Assembly (NCBI GenBank): GCA_051362555.1
Contig: CM120643.1
Coordinates: 10,726,001-10,790,000 of the forward strand
Direction: 5' to 3'
From: Lingula anatina
Taxonomy: Eukaryota; Animalia; Brachiopoda
Length of the DNA stretch: 64,000 bases
The position numbers were made by a program, and so were the translations under genes. The notes under the pieces were generated by a model. The model had not been told where the DNA came from, searched no databases, and saw only the letters and a list, made by a program, of their open reading frames with translations. Every line of letters begins with the position of its first letter. Within the stretch, counting starts at the first letter, position 1. Shown here piece by piece: positions 2,847 through 60,469 of this stretch.

Positions 2847-5800
2847 CTAAGCTTGACTTGTCATGTGTGATTTCTTCGATCGACTAGACGAGCTTAAAGA
2901 CATTGCAGCATCACTGTCTCCACGAACACTAGAGAGGTCCAATGGCGGAACGCCTAAATGCGCTGCTTTCACACGAGGCCTTGAAGTCAACCTTACTCGA
3001 GTAGAAATATCTTGATTGTCATCAAAAACGCCATCCTCTTGGAGCATTTTGGCACTGAGAGAGTGATGATTAGTTCTCACAGGGTACGAAGAATCTGTGT
3101 GCAGTTTCTCTTTCTTTTTCTTCATTTTCTTCCGACCTGGGAGCAACCGGTCCGAGTACTCGGGTATCCCGTCCCCAAAAGAGGGACTAGGATCCCTGGA
3201 ACTGGATGACAAACCTGGACTAAGCCGGGTTGAAGATCGTTCAGTGTTTTTTTGAGATCTACTAGATATATTTGTGTCTGATAGAGGGATTTCTTGTAAA
3301 GATTCTGCCGAGTCTGAGTGGTATTCTGGAGCAGGCGATGCTGGAATGATGTCATCAGAGCGAGGGGTCACGTGATGAATGCCGATTGGGTAGGCAGGGA
3401 CATCAATCCGTACGGAGGTACCACGTGGTGTGTATGATGGCTTACGATCTGGAAAATATGAACATCTCAAATGTTAGAGGTCATGTTTCATAACATAAAG
3501 GCCGAAGGTCAGGTTTCATTTTAACCAATTTTTTTCACACCTGGTTATGATTACTTTCTTTTTATTTCTATCACTAAGGTTACATAACTGTGAATTCTCA
3601 AGCTATATTTTTCTCCTTTCTTTTTTTTTTTTTCTTTTCTGCGAGTGGGGTGGGGGGAGTTGGAAGAGATTGAAATCTTAATATAGTTTTTTTAAACTAA
3701 GTCAACAGAGTCTATTATGAATACAAAGTCTATTACAAATATATGAAACACATAATGAGATGCAATGTTAAAAACACTCTCAGTGGGTTAGATTAAAGTA
3801 TAGGAGAAGGTTCTATGTAAAACTTTGATCAGATTTGTGTTTTAGGAGATTGTTTATGATTATTTTAATGAAATTTGTATAAAAAAAGTCCTGCTAAAAC
3901 AACTATAAAAAATTAGAAAACGAAACTATTTATCATGACTTCAGAGCATAGCCAGAAGAAGGTCATGACCTGGATTTCACCACGCTCAAGACCAATCACA
4001 GCAGGGTTCAGCCAGAATGAGATGATGTCATGATGCAACGCAAGTTTGGCAGAAAAGTTGTAAAACTTCTCTTATATAGTATATTCTAAATCAGCTGTCT
4101 GTACAAAACTAACTTCAAAAGTGAGGCAAGTCGAAATAATGTTCAGATAACGTCGCTAACCATAAAAGTAATTCACACATGTATCTTGTTAGTAACCATA
4201 TTTTCGGTACAAATACCAATCAAAAACAGAAAACATAAAGCCCAAAATGCTCTTATACCTGAACCAACTTTGTATGAGCAGAAATATCATCACGTATTGT
4301 AAACATGTTTATACGATAATCATACATACTTGAGCCCTGTGAAGCGCATAGGCCTACTCACGTGTCGAGAAGTTTTGCCAGTGCCTTGTATGTAACACAA
4401 TTCTGCTTTTAGTTTCTTCCACCTCCCCAACTCCCTCCCAACATACACAGGCTGAGACCTTCTGTGTCTGTCTCTTATTTGTTTTCGTATTTAGCGAACT
4501 GGAATGACTACTTTTTTCTTCTCCTTTTATTGCACTCTTCGGACTTTTCGCACGTCTCCATGTTTGCTGTCTTGGCGCCAAAAAGTAACATCCGGGTCTC
4601 AGCTATAGTATTTCATTCATAGTAAACCGTGAGACTTAGAGAGAAATTGCGCGTTCTGAAGCTGTACTGTGAGATGGTAGCTGAGTATTTAAGACGAGTC
4701 GTCTTAAATAAATTAATGGAACTTAATAACGGTTTTAGGTAGCTTCATTTTCTGAATGGTTTTGGATAGGATATACCTTGGCCATTATGGGAAAATTGGT
4801 GAAAATTCAAATGAATGAAAATTCATTTTCTTGCTATATTAAGGGTTTAACCCACTGAGACAGTCTTTAAGCCTAACACACGACTAATATTTTCTACTCA
4901 CATGTCTTCTGCTCCTCTGGAGATGAAGCTGAAGAAGATCCTGATTGTGTTATCAATTCCCTGGCATCTAATTCTGCTGGTTTTGTCTTCACTTTCTTTC
5001 CTGTGGCAATCTTAGTTTTCTTCTTCTTCTTCTTTACCTGAAAGAGAACCCTGCACATAAATAAACTTCATCATAAAAATTTTAAAGACTGGTACCTACT
5101 GTGAGACAAATTACAAAGGGATACACTGATGGATTTACCTCCCCCCCCCCCCCCCCCGAAAAAAAAATAATAAAAATAATAAAATAAATAAATAATAATA
5201 ATTAATTAATTAATAAACAAAACAAAAAAAAGGTGCGTACACAATGCAAAGTTTGTTTATCTCCACTTCTTTTTATGCTTACTATTAATATTTCTATATA
5301 TGGTACCTTTTGTTTAGGCTTATTATCTGTCGCTTCTTCCATCAGCATCTTTTCATAGTCTCTCAGGACACCAGTGCCCCCTTTAGTCAAGTCCCCCTGC
5401 ACACCATTGCCCCCTACAGTAGAGATACTGTACACAGAATCTGATTGTACCATGCCACTGTCAACTGGATGTATTTTGTTTTTCTGAAAAATGAAACAAT
5501 AACACAACCAATCAACAAATATCAAATTTAATCAATTCAAATCTATCAAAGTCAAATTACGTTTAAATTCAAAGTTACAAAAAAAAAAAAAATTCTAAAT
5601 AGCAATATATTTGTTCAAACTTAACACTTGAATTCAACAATGCTTATGTACAAAATGAATTTTAATATCTTATTAATCCTGCTTAAACTATTTCACTTAA
5701 ATAGCATATTTATCCTCAGGCCAATAAAACAGTGAGATTTTTCTTTTAGCCTAAGCCACCTTTTAAACCTTATTGACAGTCAACTCTTGGATGGCCTCAT

Positions 5801-8566
5801 CTCTGCCCTTTTCCCCATTTTCACTGTTTTTCCTTTGAACTCTGCGTTTATAGAAGCCATGAGTAGACAAACCAGACAGTCCTATGGCATAGAAAAAGCA
5901 AAAGAGAACAGGTAGGTGCAAGCCTAAGAGGGATATACATGTAGCAAGACAAAGACAGATTCCAAGAAAAAGTACAAATGTTCATCTTCTTTGGATCCTT
6001 GCTGTGAAATGCACAGGCATGCACAGGTGAAAAGTGGAGTCTCTAGTGTCTACTTTCTAGCTGCAGTAGAAAGCTGAGATTAGTACATACAACACACACA
6101 CAGAGCTGATATTTTTATTAATAACTGAGAAAATATGAAGAGAAAATAGTTTAGAAAAGAACTGCGTAGGGTAACTATTGCACAGTCAAGAGAGAGACTA
6201 ATATTTGTAATAAGCAAAATGCACTGTTGGGAAGAAATACCTTCACCTGGGGAAAACAAGTAGAAAAATAGTTGTAACACAGATCAATCTCGTATTGATT
6301 GGCTGGAAATTGCACCAAAAGAACCAGGAAGAGGGACATTTAGTTAGTCGCTGCACATTGTCGAAGACTATTTGCTCAATAAGCTGCAGAAATATGTACC
6401 AGTGCATGGTAGGGAAGATTTCACTGAATGATCAAACCAAACGCACACACACACACACGAGGCTGAGTAGATGTTGAGAATAGATTATATCAAAGCAACA
6501 TCAGTGATAAAACTACACAAGAAAAGAGACTAGTGCTGAAAAAAGGAAGAAAAAGAGGTTTGCACATAGGAAGATTGCTGGGAAACTGCACAAAGCTCTT
6601 GAAGAGCTGTACCTTCAAAGATGAGCGTTTTGAATTTTCTTCTTTTATTTTGCCTATTTCTCGTTCTCTTGCCTCACGTTCTGCCTCTTGACGCTGCATG
6701 ACAATGTAATCGTAGGTACTGAGATCTTTGCACACTGGAAGAAATAAGGGAGAAAGACTTAAGGTAAGGTCATTCTACTAAACAACTATACTACGTAATT
6801 ATATACCAACACCCATTCCAGAGATTTACTGTGTAAAAACAGCTAAATCAAATAAAGAGAAAAAAATGAAAACCTAATTTCTATTTCATTTCCCATGCAC
6901 AGCAATTGTCATCTAAATGAGAAAACAAAAAAATTGTTATTCATATGTATATATATATATATATACCATATCCCTAGTAAGTAAATTATTATGTCCCAAA
7001 TTAATAAAAAAGAAAATAAATAAATACCTAAAACGTTAAAAAAAATACATTACTTATTCACTGCAACTGTACTCTAAATGAGAAAACAAAAACCTGTTAT
7101 CTTCTAATAAACAGTAAAGGTTATTCTTCAAGTTCTGCAATTCACAACTAGCCATGCCTCCAATGCATATAGAAAAAAAAAAACTTATGACTAAGTCGAG
7201 ACATATTTCCATGGTAAAAATGCACAGGCACAAGTGATTCTAAAAGAGAAAAACACCCAGGAATGAATTAGTACTATTAGTTTTAACATGCAGACTGTTG
7301 CAGGCAGGGGGGAGTGAATTGGACAAAGACATGTGCGTACCTTGACAGAGCCACAACATTGATAAGGTTTTTCTTCAGAAGAACAGGGAATAGGAATCTC
7401 GCCATTCTCAACACTTGACTGACTTGCCACGCCTACATGACCTAATTCTATAACTTCGTCTTGACTTTCATCATTGGAAGACTCTTGTTTCTTGGACCGT
7501 GTCTTCTGAATGTGTTCGTAAAAAGTCAACCCATTGCATCCTACAGAGATTTGAACACAAAAAATATCAGTAAATTATATAGTTTCTTGATCCAGGTGGC
7601 CATCTTGGTTTTGTCAACCAACTTGAAAAGTCCAGTCTAACTTCCTTAAAATAGTCATAAGAAATAAAAATGAAAACATGCTAATGTGTAGCAACCAGTG
7701 ATTTCAAAATCAGTACAGCCATGAAAAACGAATGTTTCAGAAATATATCTAAACCTACAACTTCTGTATTCACTCATAAAATTCTTAATTATAATTCAGT
7801 AATTGATCATATTTGAATTAAAAAAAAAAAACAGTAATATTTGATAAAGAAGACTCAAAAGTTCAGAAATTTAAGATGTGTTTATATCAGAAAGTATGTT
7901 AAGTGAGTAAATAGAACATGATATCTTGCATAAAAATCAATAAATACTGGAATAATTATGTGATACATCCCTAGTTACTAACTTAAAATATCTTTTGGGC
8001 TGTATCTCTTTCTCACATTATCATATCTATGCTTATTCATATCAACTTCCAATTTGGCATTACTTGCATAAAACTTAATTAATCCCTTTTAAATTGCTAC
8101 TATTATCATCTATTCCCAAACTCTATTTTTTTCTAGGAATTTCTTGACAAAAATGGACTAAAACTACAAATAGTTGTAGCTATTGGTAACAAAAGAAAAG
8201 TCACTAAGACTTCATTTATCTATAATATATGAGGGATTGATCAACATTCTAACCATATCACATATGTAAGGTTAAAAAATTATCATGTGAATAAATGTTA
8301 TCAATAAATATTAATTACAGCTCAAATGAATAATAAAATGGAATAGCATAAGTATTAACATCATTTCAACAATAATATATAGGAATTCATCAACATAAAG
8401 CAGATATAAAGTCTCTAACAATTCATTTTGATATGACACTGTCTTTATCTTATACAAAATTTTCATATATTATAAAGAAAATAAAGTGACATTATGATTT
8501 GAGACTTTAAAATAGCCTATAAAGTGTCTTATGAAAAATCAAATTATATTTAAGCATGTTTCAATA

Positions 8567-8617
<51 letters not shown>

Positions 8618-11600
8618 ATTACTTGTCCATATTTCAGTTAGATTAGAGCTGAGACCAATAGCTGTGAATTTCTTAGTTACTGGCCACTGTTTTTACTTTA
8701 GTCAAATAGACTCATAAACACAGCTTGGTGGCTAAAGGGGCCAGTAGAAAAAAAGGTTTTACAGATAGTTAAAAATTACTTACTTAAATAAATATGGAAT
8801 CCCAGCAGGTGTCCTAATAATATAATGGTTATAAGAGCAAGGACTGCTGTGATTCCTAATACTGCGAGCCAGGCTTCATCAGGCACACTGGCATAGAAGA
8901 TATGGAACAACACTGAAAAGAAAATATAAACATACATATATCAAAGCTCTTTAACTCATACCAAAGTCAAAACTGACTGGCTAAAATGTAAGACATTTTA
9001 TAGAGAGAATTTTTAAAAAATTGTGCAATTTTGGTGGTAACTAAGTAATGTTTACAGATGAGCTGAAAGAAATGGAAGAATTTAGAGAACTGTAGCAGTA
9101 GATTTTAAAATTGAAGGGATATGGATTTTGAATTTCATATGATTTTTTGTTTCAGTTTGAGCATTTTTTTTTCATTTATGGGACATAAAATAAAACTGCA
9201 ATAGAAAAAATTCATAATAAAATGACAAAAAAGGAAAAATTCATACCATTTCTATTCCTATATTAATAAATAAAAATATAATTCAAATTGTGCACGAGTA
9301 TAATTTTTAATCATTTACAACACAAACTTAAAATTCCTAACTCCAAAATCTACTTACATGGTGTCTCATAAGGCACAGTTGCAGTGCTGACAGTGCTGAC
9401 AGTGGTGTCTGTAGTACTGTTACTGTACACAGTTGTTAATACTGATGTTGTTGTACTGGATAAATAGTCTGAATGAAAAGAAACAAATACATGTAACATG
9501 AAATAATAGACAGGCGCAACAGTTGCAGTAAATCACTGCTGTTGTTGTTATTGTTGCACATGGCTGATTTTCTAATAGAAATCAGTTATTTAGTAGATTC
9601 ATTACAAACAATAATAAATGTTTCAATCTCAAAAGTGACACTTTTGACTCCCAAAAAGTTGGAAATGTGCTGATAGTCAGCAAAATCTCATTACTGCATG
9701 GCAAAAACTGAAAGGCAGGCACACTTACCTCTATATTGTTGCAATATATGACCATCACTTTTATCTGTGTAGTAGGCAACAAACTGTAGAATACACAGAG
9801 TAAGGATCAACAGGCATCCTACAAGAGCTGTCACCAAGGTTAAAATAAATAGTCTGGAAAAAAATAAAAAAATATTTCTTCATAAAATCAAACCTTTATT
9901 TAATCATTTCTATCTGTTTAATTTAGTTGGATAACACTGAACTAAAAAATCAAAATATAAATAATTTTTCCTCTCCTATCAATGCATGCATGCCATTTGG
10001 AGGGCGGGGGGGGAGGGGGGGGGGGAGGGGGAGAGAGAGAGAGAATATATTCAGCAATTACTAGTGCTGGTGAATGCAAGTTCTGCACTTATATCTACTC
10101 AAAGCTCAAGTCAAAATCATACTCTAAATGTATGAAGGGTCACCACATGTTTTAAAGAACAAAGAATTTGAAACGTAAAATTTTGGAAGTGCTAATACAC
10201 GACAAGTAAGCGACCCTGCTATCCCCCAATGAACAAAGGGCAACTGAGGGGTGTAAGGAGGCCATTCACTTTTACTTAACAGAATTCACACTGGAGCCTT
10301 ACATTTGTCAGTATTGTGAAAAGGCTTCATTTTTTGGGGGCGTTTGTGTGGTTGTGTTACTAGCAAGGGCCAACAACATAAACAAATCATTATGTCACTG
10401 CCATTTCATGGTCAACAAGGTTTTTTAAGGATGGTATGCCTTACTAATGGCCAGTATTTTGTTACAAAATGTGGAATTTCTCTACTTACATTCAAACAAA
10501 GGATAATTGTGAACGCGTCTGAAAGGGGGGGGGGGAGAGAGATGCTGTAAACACTTGCTAGTGCCAGTGCATGCAAGTTCTGTACACAAATCCACTTAAA
10601 ACACAAGTCTAAATTATACTCTAAATGTAAGAAAAGCCAACACTCCTGTTAAAAATTGAAAAACTTTGCACGTAATTTTTTGGAAGTGCTAATACATGAC
10701 AAATAAGCAATCCTACCATCCCATGATGAATAAAGGGCAACTCAGAACACTAAAGAGGCTACTCAGGTTGGGCCATTATGAAAGAATTCACACTGGAGCC
10801 TTACAAATGTCAGTTCTGTGACAAGGCTTCATTTTTTGGGGATCTCTGCAAGGTACCAACAGAGGTCAGTAATAATGACAAAGAAATAAGTCATGGCCAT
10901 TGTGAATACACAGTTGTACAAGGACAGTTTGCCACGTTGATGACATGCCCTTGCTAGGTAAGTCATATACTCCCCACATTTGCTAAGATACAGAGGCTGG
11001 CTGGGACATCATGCCTAGGATTTATCATGAAGTGTAGTAAAATATTTAGAAGCAGTTTGGCCTTTTTAGATATGTTTCTTAGGTCTACTTTAAGCAAAAA
11101 AAAAAAAAAAAAAAAACTGCTTCAATCAAAATGTGATCTTAAAGTAACAAAATTTTAGTTATTAGTTTTTTATGGTCATTATTCGAAGATCTCTGAATTC
11201 TTAGTATTATTTTTGCATAAGATACGCTTGTGACTCATAAGCAGCTGTCACATGTCCTAGAGTTAACTTACTTGTAGTTTCTGCCTCCTACGCAGTTATT
11301 GAGCCACTTACAGTGGTGATCAAAATCACTGACACACTTGTTACAGGCACTACAATGTTTAGATTTTGGTCCTCTGAAAGGAGAAAAGATAAATTTTGCA
11401 TTAACACCTGCATTTCCTATCCAAATAACAAAGTAAGAAATTTCACTCTCCCAAAGTAAAAGAAACTTAAGCCAGTTTTATCCACTCTATACAAATTCAA
11501 ATCTTCTGAAGTATCATATTAAATGTCAGTACAGCAGAATCATATTAATCAAGTTCTCAAACCTTAAAAAAAGAAATGCAACTTACACTTCTACTTCACA

Positions 11601-14069: not shown

Positions 14070-14340
14070 TCATCCTTTGCTCAAATTTATCATATGTATA
14101 TATCACATTTCAGGTGACACTAAAGCGTTTCCATTAAATTGTACATGAAATTATGTAAAAGGATACCACATAACCAGCAGTTTGCCATTCCACTGGCAAA
14201 CCAGGCACCAAAATAACAAAATGTATCACACCAAAGAATATGATAAACCCCCAGGCAACAAACTGTAAGGGATGTGGGGGGCAAGACCAGCCGTTCTCTC
14301 TACTGGGCTGCTGGACCTCTACATTGGTGTCAGCACCCAT
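2847..14340 (-). CDS. ZDHHC1: DHHC palmitoyltransferase of the ZDHHC1/ZDHHC11 subfamily, multi-exon (about 617 aa with exon 8B)
   Basis: Coding exons (minus): 14340-14167, 11762-11587, 11373-11272, 9853-9729, 9468-9358, 8912-8784, one of [7540-7341, 6734-6613, 5881-5769], 5483-5307, 5037-4902, 3448-2847. All junctions are GT-AG and phases are consistent. The translation contains [83 protein letters not shown] and LSTYDYI, which match the ZDHHC1/11 signatures I recall. Confidence 0.95.
3772..4866. mobile_element. TTAA-flanked non-autonomous DNA transposon (Kolobok-like) in the last ZDHHC1 intron
   Basis: Both ends read TTAA-ARACNNTCTCAGTGGGTTA in inverted orientation. TTAA lies at 3768-3771 and 4867-4870. 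Confidence 0.6.
5769..5881 (-). CDS. ZDHHC1: ZDHHC1 candidate alternative exon 8C (phase 1->0)
   Basis: Long polypyrimidine tract then gccatag|GA...AATAAG|gtttaa, 113 nt, open frame [38 protein letters not shown]. The donor is weak. Confidence 0.6.
6613..6734 (-). CDS. ZDHHC1: ZDHHC1 alternative exon 8B (phase 1->0), closest to the canonical TTYEYI exon
   Basis: tttcttccag|TG...TTGAAG|gtacag, 122 nt, [21 protein letters not shown]...SSLK. Confidence 0.9.
7341..7540 (-). CDS. ZDHHC1: ZDHHC1 alternative exon 8A (phase 1->0)
   Basis: ctctgtag|GA...GTCAAG|gtacgc, 200 nt, open frame [18 protein letters not shown]...CCGSVK. Confidence 0.75.
8567..8618. repeat. (TAAA)n microsatellite
   Basis: Direct reading; similar tracts at about 21846-21925 and 39760-39805. 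Confidence 0.95.
9358..9468 (-). CDS. ZDHHC1: ZDHHC1 111-nt symmetric (phase 1-1) Ser/Thr-rich exon in the TM3-TM4 loop
   Basis: ttcattcag|ACT...CCAT|gtaagt; encodes [37 protein letters not shown] in frame. Confidence 0.85.
10040..10840 (+). pseudogene. Diverged tandem duplication (about 500-bp period) carrying decayed C2H2 zinc-finger linker remnants
   Basis: AGAATTCACACTGGAG-CCTTACAWWTGTCAGTWYTGTGAMAAGGCTT at about 10281 and 10783 reads RIHTG..PYxCQ(Y/F)C(E/D)KA with a shared frameshifting deletion. Confidence 0.6.
12133..14007. mobile_element. Composite DNA-transposon relic inside the U12 intron, bounded by (TA)n
   Basis: Related sub-terminal motifs TAGCCAGMCCGYCGGGCWGGTAA...AAAGTTACCAGCC occur at about 12158-12220 and 13921-14003. 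The relic begins CAGTG after a TA run and contains a nested MITE. Confidence 0.45.
12497..12678. mobile_element. MITE family A, copy 1
   Basis: TIR CCATAGAT..TAGATCGA. The body is homologous to 28087-28295 (inverted) and more weakly to 25410-25610. Confidence 0.75.
14008..14086. repeat. (TA)n microsatellite
   Basis: Direct reading; another tract at about 51713-51779. Confidence 0.95.
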
Positions 14341-15010: not shown

Positions 15011-15348
15011 CAATCGATTTCAGGTAACTAATGACATTCCGCTAGAAAATAGTTACAAGGTCTCAATGGCAAATGTTAAAAATGTCACTTATTCCCATTT
15101 CTCCCTATAAAAGATAACAAAAGAGATATTTTATTAATATAAAATTCTGACGAAGTATTTTATGGGACAAGGAGCAGTCTTTTTCGGATAGTCCTATCGC
15201 GCATTGATAATCAACTGAGCCTCATCACTTAATCGGACCAGCTTTTCGCTCTTCTTGAAAAGAAGATTTGAAGCAGGTGCACGGGAACACATGAGATTTC
15301 CATGCCTTTATTATTTTCCGTAGTTTTTTACTGAGAAGAGAAAACAAT
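15010..15348. promoter_or_regulatory. Bidirectional promoter region between ZDHHC1 and SRFBP1
   Basis: The two genes are head-to-head, about 340 bp apart. CpG is locally elevated, and a YY1-like CCGCCATTTT lies at 15001-15010. Confidence 0.65.
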
Positions 15349-16593
15349 ATGGAATCGGACGTGAGAGATTTAGATACGGCACCCAAAGCAAGTATCGACA
15401 TAGTTGGTCTGAATAATCAGGTAATATAACTGGCAAAATTTAGGAGCTACAAAGACAAGTAGCTAGTACTGAGTACATGTAGTAGCTAAAGCGAATTACT
15501 CTGTAGCACTTTACTAAATGCAAATGTCTGAAGTTGATTAAAAAAATCAAAAAACATCCCAACTTAATTGTATTACACTGTACACACATTAATACTTTTA
15601 AGATATCAAATATCTGGATTAAATATATGGGATCAAGTTACAGCTATGTAAATGGATGCAAAAAAAAAAAAAAAAAAGTCTTGGTAGAGGTTGTAGCTTC
15701 ACAGAACCATCAACTACTTATTTTGAACTTAGTGAGCATTAGGGGCATATTTAAAAAAAATATTTACTTTTCTTTCAGTTGGTGTCTATGAGGAAAACTG
15801 TGAAGAAAGCTCGGGTCCAGGTCATCAATAAGTTAACAAGACAGATACGTAAATTGAAACCAAAAGGGTGAGTTTTTAATACATACAGGAGCTATTAAAT
15901 ACATACTTTTTATACAATATCTAAATTGCTTGTCTGTAAATATGCATGTAGCACTTATATCTAGTTTCCCACAATTTCATAATAATAGCACTTCAAAAAA
16001 TAGTAGATGGTTACATTAGCAGGCTAGATAGAATTAATGTGGTAGCCTGGATTTGTTTGTTTATTTGTTTGTTTGTGTTTATTTGTTTGTTTATTTTTAT
16101 GGACAGACAGTATATGTGGACATGTGGCCACTACCAGTCTCTATCATTGCGGTTGGTGTTGCTGTGGACATTCCACATTTCTGTACAGGAAAACTGTTAA
16201 TTATTATTCTCAATTTTACATGAATGATTATAAGGACTAAAATACAGCTCAAGTTAAGAAAAAAAAACACATCTTTTGTTTATTTCATTTTGAACTTCAG
16301 AAGATTTTCTTGATAATTTTCAGAGAAAGTGGGCTACCAGGCAGAGAGAAAAGTGCAAGGAGACTTGAGAGATTGAAGGCAGAGATGGAAGTGATTAAGG
16401 TAAAGATTTGATTTGTTTTGAAATGGTGATTTGCCAGTGTCAGGTTTACAGTAGCCAGCTGGTATTAGTATGTATTGTTTCTGACAGATTGTACAGTATT
16501 TTGAAATTCGTCATTTTATTGTGATGAATTTGAAAATATTTAGTTTGTATGTTGCATTAAATATTTGAGTATTATTAATGTGCCTTACAGAAA

Positions 16594-16626
<33 letters not shown>

Positions 16627-19388
16627 GTGTTTCTTGCAGGGTTTGAATGCAGATAAGGTTTCCAAGTATGCATTAGCTTCAACAGCTAGTTTTGCCGATG
16701 TTTGTAAACAGGTACATAAAATATTACTAATTAAAATATTTAATGTTTTTTTATTTCTTCTTAGATTTATAGATTCTTCCCTATTCACCTATGATGTACT
16801 GAGTAATATACAGTGATATTACTAGTATATAGGGGATTGTTGTGTAATTAAAGCCTATTTTATCTCTATACAGCTTGTATGGAAGTTATCATGTTGTTTC
16901 CTTTGATGACTTAAATATCCCTTTTTCAAATGTTTTATTTTCATTTGAAGTGAAAATGGAAGGAACTACCAGTAAATGTTCATTCAGCGTAAGACAAGTG
17001 AATAAAGTTGTCCTGATGTGAACTGACAGGCACTAAGGTTCTTTTGTTGTTTTTGTTTTGCCTTGTTGAACATTTGTCCATTTTGATGTGTAAATCTTAA
17101 TATGTTTCAGCCAAATGCATCTGAAGTTGGCAGAGCAATGGCAAGACTTGCAGATAACGCTGTCTTACAGAAGGCAGTAAAAGAGTTCCGCAGCAAACAT
17201 GCAGACTGGCCATCATTAGCTGCTTATCTTTTAGCAAAAACAACTAATAGAAAATTCAAGAAGAAAAAGAAAAAGGTTAAACAAAAGAATCAAGGAAAAA
17301 AACAGGAAGTTAAAAGGAAAGTTGATGCTTTTACGCTGGAACTACGTTTAAAAAGCAAAGAAAAACTTGAAAAAGACAAAACTGAACAAAAACAAAAAAT
17401 GAGCAATGCAGGGAATACAGCATCTCATTCTTCAACACTGGCACAATCAGAAAAGAAAGAAATTTCTCTCAAGGAGTCCATATTTTCTCAACAGGATATC
17501 CCTAGTTGGGATCATTCTTCTGAATCTGATGGCAATGATTTGTCAGATTCGGATGAAGATAATATGGTTGAATCTGGCAGTGATGCCTCTGGTGAAGATG
17601 ATGAAAAATCCACCAAACCTTCAATATTATCCTCCATGTCAGCTACAAAGTCAGTTGTAACATCTGACACGTCTAGAGAATGCACCAAGACAACCGTGTC
17701 ATCTTCTGAACCCATTGCGAGACCTTCTAAAGCCTCTGTCATTGTGGAAAAAGAAACAGAAGAAATGGTAGTAAAGAAATTAGATTTACGTCAGCTTCCA
17801 GACACTGGTGAAGTTCTGACCAGAAATGGTGCTTCGAAGACGGCTTCAAATTTAAAAGTGAACATATTTGGAGATACAGGTGCTTCTAAGACTGGACACA
17901 ATAAAGATCCATTTTTCCAATGCAGTGATGACTCTGGAGAAGAAGAGAGGGAAGAGGAAGATGATGATGATGATGATGGTGGTGAAAACGTCACTGAGTC
18001 AACATCCTCAAGACCTGTTCCTCCTAAGAGAAGATTTGAGTCCACATTTGTTGGTGCACTGAATAAACCAAGAAAATTGCCCGATGCTAAATCAAAACCA
18101 AAGTATGCACTGCACATAAGACTTTGCTTGATCAATTCCTTTATATTGCTTTTGTGTTTAGTCTTTAGACTTCTGACCTTTGGTTATTTATTTTATCTTA
18201 ACCTAACAAATAATATCTGCAGTATCATCAAAAGCCTGTGGAAGAAAATGGTTTAAAGAAATTTTAATATTAATATGTTTCATAATTAAATGGTACACAT
18301 GTAAATGATATGATGTTGAAAATAATTGGTGTGTTTTATTTTCTTTGCTTTTTGACTAAAAATGTTCAGCTGGGAAAGTAATCTGTACTTAATACACCCC
18401 TCTCCCTCTGTACCATATCAAGCACCACTTTAAACCATTCTGATCTTTTGAAATTATTTATAATTGTTCATAAAGGTTCGAGAGAGACAACAGGAGGGGC
18501 AACCCCAGACAACCTTCAAGGCCTGAGGCAAAGAAAATGGCTGGTGCAAGGAAGTCCAACTCCTCTAGACCACAACAGAAACTGTCAGCTGGGAAACCAT
18601 GGACCAAAACAACAGGTATAGATTATGGCAGGGAGTTCTCTGAAGTTTATGAAACTCAGTGGCTTTTATTTGGTTCTTCACAAGTACATTACTAGTACTA
18701 GTAGTTCTGTCTGGTTTAATGTTTGTGAACATGTTTATATCTTTAGTTTTTAGGAAGGTTTGTATATCATATTTAATGTTAATTTGAAAACATTTTAATA
18801 TTCTCTGTTGTAGGAAGTGATGGATTCCATGACATTGTGTGATTTAATCAACACTGATTTATTATCTCCAGAGTTTTAACTTGTCTGTAGATTGGTTTAG
18901 TTTAGATTGGTCTTAGGACACAAATAATCCTATGTTTGTGGAAGTAATGGATAAAGTGTAATTGTTTTACTGATCTAATATATATGAGTTTAAGTAATTA
19001 GAAATTCACTTCTGTAACTGGCTTACCTTTGCCATTTTTAATGACCAAAACCAAGGGTATGCTGGGTAAAAGAGATTTGCAGTCGATATGATGAAACTGA
19101 GGACGTACTCGTTGTCTGAGGTTTTTGTACCAACAATTTGTCTGTGCTCTGAAAAACATATTTCATTTTCTGTTAGTTTCAAAAAAATTAATATACAATT
19201 AATTTTTTATTTGTATGTCATTTATAGTTTATGATGCAATTATTTCAGAGGGTAGTGCTGTAAATAAAGAGCAGATAACCTCACTCCATCCTTCTTGGGA
19301 GGCCAGCAAAAAACGTAAACAGCAACAGAGTGCAGTCCATGCCTTTCAGGGAAAGAGGATCAAATTTGAGGACTCGGATGACAGCTAG
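15349..19388 (+). CDS. SRFBP1: Serum response factor-binding protein 1 (BUD22-domain protein), 7 coding exons, about 526 aa
   Basis: Exons: 15349-15420, 15779-15867, 16324-16399, 16640-16711, 17111-18102, 18476-18615, 19249-19388 (an in-frame alternative acceptor is possible at 19228). The N-terminus reads LNNQLVSMRKTVKKARVQVINKL and RAMARLA. The C-terminus LHPSWEASKKRKQQQSAVHAFQGKRIKFEDSDDS is the SRFBP1/BUD22 hallmark. Confidence 0.95.
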
Positions 19389-23779: not shown

Positions 23780-43836
<20,057 letters not shown>

Positions 43837-44651
43837 GTTATGTTGGTTTCAGTCTCTGTTGAGCACGTTTCCCTTGGTGTTTTTTCGTGAATGATAAAAT
43901 GATCCCTTCGAAGTCAGTCCTATTTGGATCGTTTCTTCGGATAATACCAAATGTGTCCTGTGTTCTTGACGAATGTATTTATGACAAAATATGTTATATT
44001 CCTCGATCCACACGCTTGCGCTCCAGCTCTAGTATTCTATCTCGGGAAATGTGCGCCAACAATCACTATTCTTTTGTAAATGGAGTACGGTTTGGCTTAC
44101 TTCCTCCACACAGCGCGAAACGGCAACGAGTTCACGAAGGTGGAGCTGAATAAGTTCATTAACTTTTTTCCTTTAATATTATAAAAGTCAATCAGAAGAA
44201 GTTTATGATGGAAAACAAACTTACAGATTCTAAACTCCACAAAACTCTCTGGAGAACTGGCATATTCATACCATGTATGTATATCTATAAAAGCATACTA
44301 GGTATTTTAAAAATTATTTGTATTGAAATTAAGATATTTAAAAAGTGGAAGTCTACTTATGCACATTTTCTATGTTATGTCGTCCCTCGTTTCGATCTCA
44401 CGCTCAGGTATCCTATCTTAGACTTTCCCGCCAAATCGAATATTCTCCTTATTATCGAATCATATCGCTCGATCTACACGTCACTCGATGTTTTTTATCA
44501 TTTCCAATTAAATAATTTAGTTCTGAGTGAAAGGTCAGTCACTTAAACAGTCATGTCTTCCTGTACAGTCAATATGAATACCAACATGACGTATTTTTCT
44601 TTGAGGTGTTATATTCCCGCATCGTAATGCCCTGCACCCCCCCCCCCCCCC

Positions 44652-57330: not shown

Positions 57331-58480
57331 GGTTTAAGTTGCGATTATATGTGACCTAAATCCAAGAGATGGGAACACAGGTCTTTAATTGCAGTCTAGG
57401 AGGAGAAGAGGTAACGGTGACTTGTATCCCAAGCCATCCTGTTGAGCGGGCGGAGCCAGCAGATCCGTACGAGACGGGTCGGGACTAAAACCATGAGTAC
57501 TGCCATCGTACACCCTGACTGTACTTATTATTGAAAATATAGTTTCATTACTGAAATAAAAGATCAACAATTATTTACAAAAGTCAGCAGACCTTCACTT
57601 GCTTCTGTATTGGAAAAAATGACTTCAGAATATGGCTGACATTGAGTGGAAGAGGGGCAACAACACACTTCAACAACTGGCAAAAATGTTGCCAGAATAA
57701 GTTTTGATGAAAATTGGTAGGTTTATTCTGTGTATTAAAAGTCGTCTTCTACCCACTGGAAGAAAGTGTACACCCTCTCTGATAGGAGGTATCTCAAAAT
57801 GAAACGGTGTTGCTACATATAAAAATTGGCATGTTGGCCAATTTTGTCGAGTTGTATCTCATTCATTTCACCTTAATGCTGGGAAAACCGCACACTTAGA
57901 GCTACAGGATACCCTCTGCTATCATGTCTTATTTTTTCACTAGGCTTTTATGCAAAGAATAAAGCACAATTCATGAATTTTCATGAAAATCACAAAACTT
58001 AGAATTTTTTATCACAACTTCATCTCAGTGCACACAACGTATTCTGAATATCTTCCTGCGCACTGCCAGTTGCCATATGACTGAAACAAGCATGTGAATA
58101 TTGCGTCTGATTCTTTGTATCAGACTCGTCATTTTACTTGACAACACCAAATGTTTGAAGGTAGTTTTATTACGATAATTTCTTGAAGGCATCAATTTCT
58201 TAAAGTGCGAGGCTATGGGCATGATTGGAAAAACAGCTAAAAAACAAGTACTTTCAGTTTTTGTCAATTTCTTGAAGGCGTCGATTTCTAGAAAGGCAAG
58301 TCTATGCTTAACACTGTGGTAAATGACAAAAAAAAAAATATTTAAATGGGGGTGTTACATGTTGATCATTCAATCTGTTACATATCACATCATTTATATA
58401 TTTTATATATCAGTTACTGATAACAAATGTAATCTTCAAAATGTCTTTCGGAAAGGACTGTTCCATACACCAATACTTAC

Positions 58481-58979
58481 TCAAACATGCAGCAGCCAAG
58501 AGTCGTTTGGGGAGTTCTGGGTTCGGACAGTGTGGATAGAAAGGCTGGATCACGTAGTTAGCGAACGTCAGTGCTATGATGGTGTTAGTGGTCGGAAATA
58601 CGGTAATTAGCATTACCCACAAGAAGAGAAACCCTACAAAATCCCCATAAGAATGGCGGATATATGCGTAGTCCGCGCCTGAGATTACAATAAACGTTCC
58701 CAGTTCAGCGTAACACATGGCTCCCACCAAAGAGATCAAACCGCACGCCGCCCATAACACGAGGGACGCTCCCACCGAACCCGCGTACTGCAGTACACCT
58801 TTTGGGGAGACAAAAATGCCGCTTCCAACGATCGTCCCAACTATTATAGCGACTCCTTGGAGGAGTCCCATTTCTTTTTTCATTTGCAATGGATCTGTTC
58901 CTCCTGAGGAATCCGTATTCGAGTTGCAATTCATGGGCTCTTTTTCATCTCGTGTTCCTTCGTTTTCTGCCATTGTCAT
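58481..58979 (-). CDS. Duplicated SLC7 first coding exon (exon 1b), intact; probable alternative first exon
   Basis: Same length as exon 1a (499 nt), same phase-1 gtaagt donor, no indels or stops, 28 differences in 166 aa. I found no second set of exons 2-10 between it and exon 1a. Confidence 0.88.
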
Positions 58980-60469
58980 TATGATATGTTAATTTCAGTC
59001 TCCACTTAGCACGTTTCACTTGTGTTTTTTCGTGAATGATAAATGCTCCCTTCGGAGTCAGTCCTCTTTGAATCGCTTCTTCAGATAATACCAAATGTAT
59101 CTTGTGTACTTGGCGAGTGTATTTATGTCAAAATATATGTTATATTCCTCGATTCACACGCTTGTGCTGTAGCTCTAGCTGTTGATCTTGCGTAATGTGC
59201 GCCAACAATAAAAAACCTTTTGCAAATGGAGTACGGTTTGGCAAAAACCGTATGACGCAATACTTTGTTGACTAAAGAGTTCGCGTAGGCGGAGCTGAAT
59301 ACGTTCAATTGATTGTTTGTCCTAAATATGATAAAAGTCAATTATCAGTTAGAGTGTACAGGAAAATAAACCTATACATGCAAAATTTCCACAAGACTCT
59401 GGAAAACCGACATTACATTGCATTAGGCCTACATTATACATATGTGTGTAGGCCTACATGTATGTAGAGTCAATTAAAATGAGAATATTTAATTTATTTT
59501 TCATCAAATTAAAATATTTTAAAGATGTCTGTATACATAATATGATATTTTATATATTATGTCTTTCCTCGTTTAAATCTTTCTAACCAATCCGGTATTC
59601 TCCCGCCAAATGGAATTTTCGGCTCGCAATAGAAGCACATTGCGCTACCAGTACACGTCACGTCATTGGATGGTTTCTACCATTTCTAATTAAATAAATT
59701 AATGATTTAGTTCTGAGTGAAAGGCCAGTCACTTAAACAGTCATGTCTTCCTGTACAGTTAGGAAGAATATCAACATGTTGTATTTTTCTTTGAGGTATT
59801 ATATCATTTTAAAGGCCTGAATCTCCCCGCATCGAACTTCCGCTCAGTTCCCGCCACCACTACCACCACCTCACGCACCTTTACAACCCCACATCGTTAC
59901 TCCCGAGTGGAAGATACCCCTGTGCAAAGTATAAAACAATGTTTAATTTCAAAACCTTGCTGTAAATAAAAAAAAAGTCAAGTGACATATGTGACATCAT
60001 ATGTTAATCGCCATTTAATTAGAAAAATCGCCGAGGAGGAGTAACGATGCGAGAGCGTACACAAAGAGATAGGCCTACACTCCTTTAAAAATATGACTTT
60101 GGGACTTTTTTCAAAGAAAGAAAAAACAGATATTGTGACTTTAAGAATCACAAAGCACTAAGAAAAAATAACTGGCACTTTCACTTTCATTACATGTGAC
60201 CAGTGACCTCTTAACCTCTTAATGTCTGTGAAGTGCCACCTGCTATCAGAGGTTCTAAAATAGAATACGAAGTAAGTGATACATTTTGTAACAGACTATA
60301 CTAGCGCTCCCTGTGGTCAGAGATACATTGAGTGACAAGGCACTAAAACGCTAGTTTGCTCACTATATATACCTTTTCATGTGTTAGCTTTACAACTACT
60401 TGATGTTGTGGGATATAGGCCTACATGTATTTGAAATCAAGATCGAGCTGGCAATACCGAAATCAGCAC

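What the first reader, a model, noticed from the sequence alone, without database searches (positions are those of the whole stretch)
5769..7540. Cluster of three mutually exclusive exons that swaps the post-TM4 TTxE motif of a DHHC palmitoyltransferase
Seen: three separate exons lie between the TM4 exon (ends phase 1 at 8784) and the next constant exon (starts phase 0 at 5483): 7540-7341, 6734-6613 and 5881-5769. Each is phase 1->0, open, and ends in AAG|gt. Their first residues align: [33 protein letters not shown]. Including any two, or none, shifts the frame. Established: the TTxE motif just after TM4 is conserved in DHHC enzymes, packs near the active site and precedes the membrane-proximal C-terminal helix. 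Inference: exon triplication gives one gene three interchangeable catalytic-adjacent modules, ranging from near-canonical (STYD) to strongly altered (TFYE, STHG). Exon 8A also adds several cysteines that could be autoacylated. I know of no description of such a cassette in ZDHHC1/11.
Basis: partly seen in the sequence, partly recalled or inferred. Interest (0 to 1): 0.85.

Follow-up and report, generated by a model that had tools for sequence, protein, structure and literature searches.

The report
Duplicated exon shortens a palmitoylating enzyme
In a lamp-shell (brachiopod) gene for a fat-attaching enzyme, an extra exon that likely arose as a copy of its neighbour is spliced in ahead of that neighbour in roughly a quarter to a third of messages in two RNA samples, which shifts the reading frame and would give a short, likely weakened enzyme or a message marked for decay; the proposed three-way either-or switch was not seen.

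Summary
The three exon-shaped stretches are at the stated coordinates, open and in phase, in a ZDHHC1/11 gene that matches Lingula anatina RefSeq proteins at 364 of 365 residues. The 'mutually exclusive' reading failed the RNA test (4 of 9 runs). 8B is the canonical exon, and every listed join to exon 9 comes from it (190 reads). 8A is used (22 of 63 listed reads leaving the TM4 exon), but its only listed spliced exit is into 8B (17 reads, 16 start places). No 8A-to-exon-9 join was listed. 8C has no reads in any run. 8A+8B shifts the frame and stops inside 8B, giving the 365-residue protein that RefSeq already models. That protein has Phe where 144 of 145 homologues have the second Thr of TTxE, and lacks the 304-residue tail. 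Best reading: a tandem-duplicated, frameshifting cassette that likely turns down full-length enzyme. True exclusive use in unsampled tissues stays possible (about 0.3), because 8A and 8C keep open, in-phase frames. No 8A or 8C homologue was found in other animals. This is a new case of a known kind; interest is moderate.

The parts
14167..14340 (-). first coding exon (start codon, TM1)
   Evidence: the exon model matches RefSeq P0005 at 364 of 365 residues
11587..11762 (-). coding exon 2 (TM2, DPG-position motif)
11272..11373 (-). coding exon 3 with intact DHHC motif
   Evidence: PF01529 on P0005; structure matches to ZDHHC9/20
9729..9853 (-). coding exon 4 (TM3)
9358..9468 (-). coding exon 5 (Ser/Thr-rich loop)
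8784..8912 (-). TM4 exon, ends in phase 1; joined to 8B or to 8A
   Evidence: loose ends at 6734 and 7540 match window 8784-8813 apart from one variable base
7341..7540 (-). exon 8A: diverged homologue of 8B, frameshifting cassette; motif T-F-Y-E
   Evidence: TM4 to 8A 3/15/4 reads (X1/X3/X4); 8A to 8B 9 and 8 reads; no 8A to exon 9 row; profile rank 2 of 7219
6613..6734 (-). exon 8B: canonical post-TM4 exon (S-T-Y-D), present in every listed path; first 78 nt read in a second frame after 8A
   Evidence: TM4 to 8B 19/19/3 reads; 8B to exon 9 89/95/6 reads; orthologue in homologues
6654..6656 (-). early stop codon met when 8B follows 8A (protein of 365 aa)
   Evidence: same end as RefSeq XP_023930091/2
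6241..6246 (-). candidate 6-nt in-frame micro-exon (Val-Lys); not seen in the reads
   Evidence: sequence; loose ends at 6613 go straight to exon 9 with agreement 1
5769..5881 (-). exon-shaped 8C: open, in phase, weak homology; silent in the four runs laid
   Evidence: depth 0 over 5725-5850 in all 4 runs
5307..5483 (-). exon 9, first constant exon after the cluster (phase 0)
   Evidence: loose ends at 6613 equal window 5454-5483
4902..5037 (-). exon 10 (Lys-rich tail)
   Evidence: in RefSeq P0007
2847..3448 (-). last coding exon to the normal stop

Best explanation
Exon 8A, likely a tandem duplicate of the canonical exon 8B, is spliced in ahead of 8B rather than instead of it, which shifts the frame and stops translation inside 8B, and so likely works as a switch that lowers the amount of full-length, fully active ZDHHC1/11 enzyme. 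Shown: two paths in RNA, TM4-8B-exon 9 (617 aa, canonical S-T-Y-D) and TM4-8A-8B (365 aa), with 8A inclusion of about 24% and 38% in runs X1 and X3; 8C is not used in the four runs. Inferred: 8A and probably 8C arose by duplication of the post-TM4 exon and were under coding selection. 8B has stayed effectively constitutive in these tissues, so choosing 8A gives double inclusion. The product either goes to nonsense-mediated decay or, given its high steady level, is translated. If translated it would be a four-helix DHHC protein that lacks the active-site-contacting second Thr of TTxE (Phe279) and the 304-residue tail, so likely a weak enzyme. Either fate lowers normal activity.
For:: joint 7341-6734 in 9 reads (8 starts) in X1 and 8 reads (8 starts) in X3, on the strand expected for the gene. 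TM4 to 8A: 3, 15 and 4 reads. No loose-end row at 7341, 5881 or 5769. All 190 listed reads into exon 9 leave from 8B; 22 of 63 listed TM4-donor reads go to 8A (95% interval 23-48%; 19-53% with counts halved for overlapping mates). If half of the spliced 8A exits went to exon 9, at most 2 such reads would have probability 0.03 (X1) and 0.05 (X3). RefSeq X1/X2, which differ from the window at 1-2 residues and so likely come from another haplotype, model the same 8A+8B protein; second-Thr column is T in 144 of 145 homologue windows; 8A has F. HMMER places Thr278/Phe279/Glu281 on T-T-N-E of ZDHHC9 (weak second stretch). PMC7586229 (passages): the second Thr bonds the DHHC Asp in zDHHC20, and AAXE markedly lowers activity; the model has the post-TM4 helix (279-305, pLDDT about 90 to residue 300) and a low-confidence rest.
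Against: 8A is open for 66 codons (178 of 20000 base shuffles are), and both 8A and 8C keep the phase of exon 9. A pure frameshift switch needs neither, which points to present or past in-frame use. Only two runs are deep; about 6 in 100 of their reads were read; tissues are unknown; joins under 3 reads per run are not listed. The laid stretch held neither the TM4 exon nor exon 9, so those joins are read from loose ends and a TM4-to-exon-9 skip could not be seen. The tool drops some reads silently, so zero depth on 8C is not proof. Regulation is unproven: X1 and X3 differ at p=0.02 by reads but p=0.24 with halved counts. No protein, decay or activity data. No homologue of 8A was found to show conservation.
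Confidence: 0.5

Rival explanations
1. A real but tissue-restricted mutually exclusive cluster policed by decay. In tissues or stages not sampled, 8B is repressed and 8A or 8C is joined to exon 9, giving full-length enzymes with swapped motifs; the 8A+8B form is the leak seen where 8B is on.
For: Three open frames with different lengths but the same phase; exon shapes of this phase are rare in the window; 8A keeps the motif with conservative and silent codon changes while whole-exon DNA likeness is at chance level. In C. elegans 14 of 19 non-triplet exclusive clusters rely partly on decay, and some exons are rare at sampled stages (PMC4165533, passages). Only 4 of 9 runs were laid.
Against: No single-inclusion 8A or 8C form in 316 laid reads. 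Double inclusion is about 30% at the 8B acceptor (17 of 55), far above the 'almost undetectable' level that paper reports for its exclusive clusters. The search on exon 2 found one cluster among 2 candidates, with no full-length 8A or 8C protein among the 3 of 4 members read. The 606- and 731-nt introns give no steric block unless a branch point is far upstream, and no shared docking/selector repeat stood out.
Confidence: 0.3
2. Decaying relics. 8A and 8C are old duplicates that have lost their use; 8C is silent and 8A leaks into messages without benefit.
For: Loss of the near-invariant Thr in 8A and of the acidic residue in 8C. No homologues found. 8C has the weakest donor match (4 of 9 consensus letters, shared with exon 1) and no reads. 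Nine reads run unspliced past the 8A donor.
Against: Wasting about 30% of messages is costly. 8A is still open and identical in protein (66 of 66 residues) between the window and RefSeq, and no variant base was listed inside it; but the rest of the gene differs at only 3-4 residues, so this test is weak.
Confidence: 0.17
3. Mis-mapping or assembly artefact (collapsed paralogues or haplotypes).
For: The RefSeq model is split into two genes at this place.
Against: Reads are mostly 99% or more alike (118 of 142, 114 of 155); none fit two places; joints have GT..AG ends with up to 64-68 letters on the short side.
Confidence: 0.03

Closest known systems
Non-triplet alternative splicing: decay-sensitive, alternative C-terminal length and dual-coding classes (PMC13247117; abstract and section 7 read)
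   Same: A cassette whose length is not a multiple of 3 shifts the frame of the next exon. 78 nt of 8B are read in two frames, above that paper's 60-nt threshold for dual coding.
   Different: Here the cassette is itself a homologue of the exon it knocks out of frame, so it replaces a catalytic-adjacent motif. Which class applies (decay or stable protein) is untested.
Tandem exon duplication-derived substitutions (PMC8373072; passages read)
   Same: Homologous tandem exons that give homologous protein stretches; that paper notes C-terminal substitutions can come from frameshifting events.
   Different: Its substitutions include one or the other exon, not both. 'ZDHHC' occurs 0 times in its main text (supplements not read). 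Here both copies are in the same message.
Decay-dependent mutually exclusive clusters of C. elegans (PMC4165533; passages read)
   Same: Homologous, non-triplet exons with long spacing introns, where double inclusion gives an early stop.
   Different: There single-inclusion forms dominate and double inclusion is nearly undetectable in wild type. Here double inclusion is the only listed fate of 8A.
ZDHHC1/ZDHHC11 palmitoyltransferases
   Same: DHHC domain, four membrane helices, S-T-Y-[DE]-Y-I after TM4; intron position after TM4 also seen in four short unnamed records that read into the intron.
   Different: No second post-TM4 module among 41 of 60 printed relatives that had the anchor. Human ZDHHC11 acts on TRAF6 without catalysis through residues 198-412 (PMC8417235, passages), so a tail-less form might also lose adaptor function.

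Membership tests
ZDHHC1/11 palmitoyltransferase | Intact DHHC cysteine-rich domain between membrane helices | tested here: met
   Exon 3 translation; PF01529; Foldseek top hits ZDHHC9 and DHHC20, E about 1e-6
ZDHHC1/11 palmitoyltransferase | Closest relatives are ZDHHC1/11 | tested here: met
   Named rows among the best 120 of 1378 hits are mostly ZDHHC1 or ZDHHC11-like; no tree was built
ZDHHC1/11 palmitoyltransferase | TTxE-type motif with second Thr and acidic residue, in the 8B form | tested here: met
   S-T-Y-D, 34.0 bits, inside the homologue range
ZDHHC1/11 palmitoyltransferase | TTxE-type motif with second Thr, in the 8A form | tested here: not met
   Phe279 in a column that is T in 144 of 145 windows
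ZDHHC1/11 palmitoyltransferase | Autoacylation and transfer activity | not testable with these tools
   needs assay
Mutually exclusive exon cluster | Same phase, open frames, tandem position | tested here: met
Mutually exclusive exon cluster | Each exon joined on its own to both flanking exons | tested here: not met
   only 8B has both joins; 8A has no listed join to exon 9; 8C has none (4 runs, rows need 3 reads)
Mutually exclusive exon cluster | Double inclusion absent or rare | tested here: not met
   17 of 55 reads entering 8B in X1 and X3 come from 8A
Mutually exclusive exon cluster | A device for exclusion (short intron, docking pairs, minor-spliceosome ends) | tested here: inconclusive
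   introns 606 and 731 nt with GT-AG ends; 39 short inverted pairs, none an evident shared docker, no shuffle control
Tandem exon duplication | Homology of 8A to 8B | tested here: met
   profile rank 2 of 7219 AG sites and 2 of 127924 12-mers; pairwise alone is weak, 83 of 2000 shuffles
Tandem exon duplication | Homology of 8C to 8B | tested here: inconclusive
   1.1 bits, rank 5 of 7219; 591 of 2000 shuffles reach the pair score; 8A/8C 14 of 2000
Poison exon (splicing coupled to decay) | Inclusion makes an early stop well upstream of the last junction | tested here: met
   354 nt upstream of the last junction, 956 nt before the normal stop
Poison exon (splicing coupled to decay) | Isoform rises when decay is blocked | not testable with these tools
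   no such data; steady inclusion of 24-38% argues against strong decay
Poison exon (splicing coupled to decay) | Conserved in related species | tested here: inconclusive
   no other brachiopod sequence was recognised; the wider searches did not run

The most novel reading that the evidence does not exclude
A homologous swap achieved by co-inclusion: the duplicate exon silences its twin by frameshift, so one splice choice replaces the TTxE motif and removes the tail. The 365-residue product escapes decay and acts as a regulated low-activity or decoy form of ZDHHC1/11 in about a third of messages, while 8C (and 8A joined to exon 9) give full-length motif variants in rare tissues.
Probability: 0.2. 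Interest if true: 0.65.

Novelty: new member of a known kind. Interest (0 to 1): 0.36.

Why it matters
It is a natural test of what the TTxE motif and the long ZDHHC1/11 tail do: one gene yields a canonical and a Thr-to-Phe, tail-less form. It also shows a duplicated exon cluster that has the anatomy of an exclusive cluster but not its behaviour, a possible stage in the birth or loss of exclusivity, and warns against calling exclusivity from phase alone. It suggests why the public annotation is wrong in practice: RefSeq holds the short form and a separate 'gene' for the tail, and the main 617-residue form was not among the records read. The reach is limited: one species, no function shown.

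Tried and rejected
No whole genome is held for this window, so no genome-wide or related-genome test and no dN/dS. The run search listed no indexed RNA holder, only 9 raw-read runs of the same species label; that blank is not evidence. Homologues of 8A: none among the best 120 of 1378 hits, among 60 printed cluster members and extras (only 15 of 209 members of one cluster listed), or among 4 hits of 14 short candidates, all of which matched TM4 only. The search of 1.84 billion representatives and the Atlas search never ran. The 6-nt micro-exon was not seen in reads. Alternative donors 10 or 16 nt past the 8A donor would put 8A+8B in frame, but no such joint was listed. Nucleotide likeness between whole exons is at chance level (146, 335 and 167 of 500 shuffles). 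No docking/selector repeat was evident. The Octopus motif T-T-F-E-V looked 8A-like but is the only form in 4 of 4 anchored members and keeps the second Thr. Earlier scan notes: nothing by sequence or by words. Print: searches (listings only, apart from the papers cited; 0 papers) showed no title or abstract on such a ZDHHC1/11 cassette; subscription papers and supplements were not seen. PMC9013439 held none of six terms. The AlphaFold model is driven by homologues with the canonical exon, so its helix at 279-305 does not show that the 8A form folds or works.
Full report
Setting. The stretch lies in a minus-strand gene whose exon model, built from coordinates, matches RefSeq XP_023930091.1, labelled probable palmitoyltransferase ZDHHC1 of Lingula anatina, at 364 of 365 residues when 8A and 8B are both included. 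The DHHC motif is intact, and the fold matches ZDHHC9 and DHHC20. No whole genome was held.

Observation. The coordinates, splice sites, phases and open frames are as stated. One exon gives a full frame of 643, 617 or 614 residues; none, two or three give an early stop. Exon shapes of this phase are rare: 5 in both strands of the window, 4 of them in this intron (criteria chosen after seeing the exons). All three have exon-like G+C (0.40-0.43); three of the four flanking introns are lower (0.24-0.30) but one is not (0.39).

Homology. 145 of 165 fetched homologues of 150 residues or more had the TM4 anchor (many redundant; 28 left after thinning). Their profile scores 8B 34.0 bits (rank 1 of 7219 AG sites), 8A 18.3 (rank 2) and 8C 1.1 (rank 5). 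8B is the orthologue of the single exon in other animals. 8A reads T-F-Y-E in the T-T-x-E register (a weak second stretch against ZDHHC9) and so loses the second Thr, found in 144 of 145 windows. A review states that this Thr bonds the DHHC Asp in zDHHC20 and that the AAXE mutant has markedly lower activity (PMC7586229, passages; PMC8059564, passages, says the exact chemical role is unclear). 8C keeps S-T but loses the acidic residue; its homology is not established pairwise. No 8A- or 8C-like module was found in other species, but no other brachiopod sequence was recognised, and two wider searches did not run.

RNA test. Nine raw RNA runs share the species label. Four were laid on 5725-7585: 142, 155, 10 and 9 reads; about 6, 6, 6 and 25 in 100 of each run were read. 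Listed rows (3 or more reads from 2 or more starts): TM4 to 8B 19, 19, none, 3; TM4 to 8A 3, 15, 4, none; 8A to 8B 9 (8 starts), 8 (8 starts), 0, 0; 8B to exon 9 89, 95, none, 6. The loose-end letters match the TM4 exon end and the exon 9 start. There is no row for 8A to exon 9 and none at either end of 8C; depth over 5725-5850 is 0 in all four runs. Inclusion of 8A is about 24% (X1) and 38% (X3); pooled 22 of 63 at the TM4 donor. For 8C, 0 of 190 reads into exon 9 bounds its use at 1.6% (3.1% with halved counts), or 4.6% (8.9%) against the 63 donor reads. Limits: mates overlap, so reads overcount molecules; up to 2 reads per run may be unlisted at any join; tissues are unknown; the tool silently drops some reads; a skip of all three exons could not be seen.

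What it makes. TM4-8A-8B reads 26 codons of 8B in a second frame and stops at 6656-6654, 354 nt upstream of the last junction and 956 nt before the normal stop. The protein keeps all four membrane helices and the DHHC domain, gains T-F-Y-E and six or seven cysteines (274, 325, 334, 335, 340, 352), and loses the 304 residues of exons 9-11. RefSeq models exactly this as isoforms X1 and X2 and files most of the tail as a separate gene, LOC112041319. A fourth cluster member was not read. The AlphaFold model (mean pLDDT 82) has a helix at 279-305 and low confidence after about 310, but it leans on homologues with the canonical exon.

Mechanism. I commit to a frameshift switch (0.5): 8B stays in, and adding 8A in front lowers full-length enzyme, by decay or by a likely weak, tail-less protein. 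The joins are shown; duplication, the fate of the message and the loss of activity are inferred. The main rival (0.3) is a tissue-restricted exclusive cluster. 8A is open for 66 codons (178 of 20000 shuffles; 8C 1301 of 20000), both spare exons keep the phase of exon 9, and in C. elegans most non-triplet exclusive clusters rely on decay (PMC4165533, passages). Against it: no single-inclusion 8A or 8C read was listed, and double inclusion is 17 of 55 at the 8B acceptor. A decaying relic gets 0.17, an artefact 0.03.

Known and new. Non-triplet cassettes, dual-coded exons and tandem exon duplications are well described (PMC13247117, abstract and section 7; PMC8373072, passages). Nine paper searches (listings) showed no account of such a cassette in ZDHHC1/11; subscription papers and supplements were not seen. 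The case is a new member of a known kind, with one unusual trait: the frameshifting cassette is a homologue of the exon it silences. It fails the membership test for a mutually exclusive cluster in the sampled RNA. Interest 0.36; the boldest open reading has probability 0.2 and would deserve 0.65.

Noticed in passing
window 6246-6241 (minus): A 6-nt in-frame micro-exon shape (Val-Lys) with a strong pyrimidine tract lies between 8B and 8C. At the same protein position Tubulanus isoforms differ by 4 residues (starting Val-Lys) and Littorina and Babylonia isoforms by 10. Not seen in the reads laid.
   Followed up: partly
window 7340-7300 (minus), intron after 8A: Nine reads (5 in X1, 4 in X3) run unspliced past the 8A donor, all with G for A at 7331, and none reaches below 7300; no joint or loose-end row explains it.
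   Followed up: partly
window 6613-6734: Reads leaving 8B (89, 95) outnumber reads entering it (28, 27) about three to one. It could be read filtering, 3' bias or decay fragments downstream of the early stop; the tool warns that dips are no finding.
   Followed up: no
window 8803 (TM4 exon) and 6646 (8B): Variable bases in the reads. In run X3 the consensus at the TM4 site differs between reads going to 8A and reads going to 8B, a weak hint of allele-biased 8A use; both letters occur with both joins across runs. The 6646 variant changes Ile to Met in 8B.
   Followed up: no
RefSeq XP_023930091/2 and XP_023930097 (P0005-P0007): The public annotation splits this gene in two and, among the 3 of 4 cluster members read, lacks the main 617-residue form.
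   Followed up: yes
window 5037-5032 (minus), start of exon 10: The exon begins GTAAAG right after its acceptor, a donor-like start that could allow a 6-nt shift or re-splicing; seen in the sequence only.
   Followed up: no
window 43249-43848 and 58410-58988 (minus): Two similar ORFs that look like first exons of tandem amino-acid transporter genes (SLC7/LAT type by recall, no family search run).
   Followed up: no
window about 15300-18256 (plus): A neighbouring gene runs away head-to-head from the ZDHHC gene, with a long Lys- and acid-rich ORF at 17087-18256; not identified.
   Followed up: no
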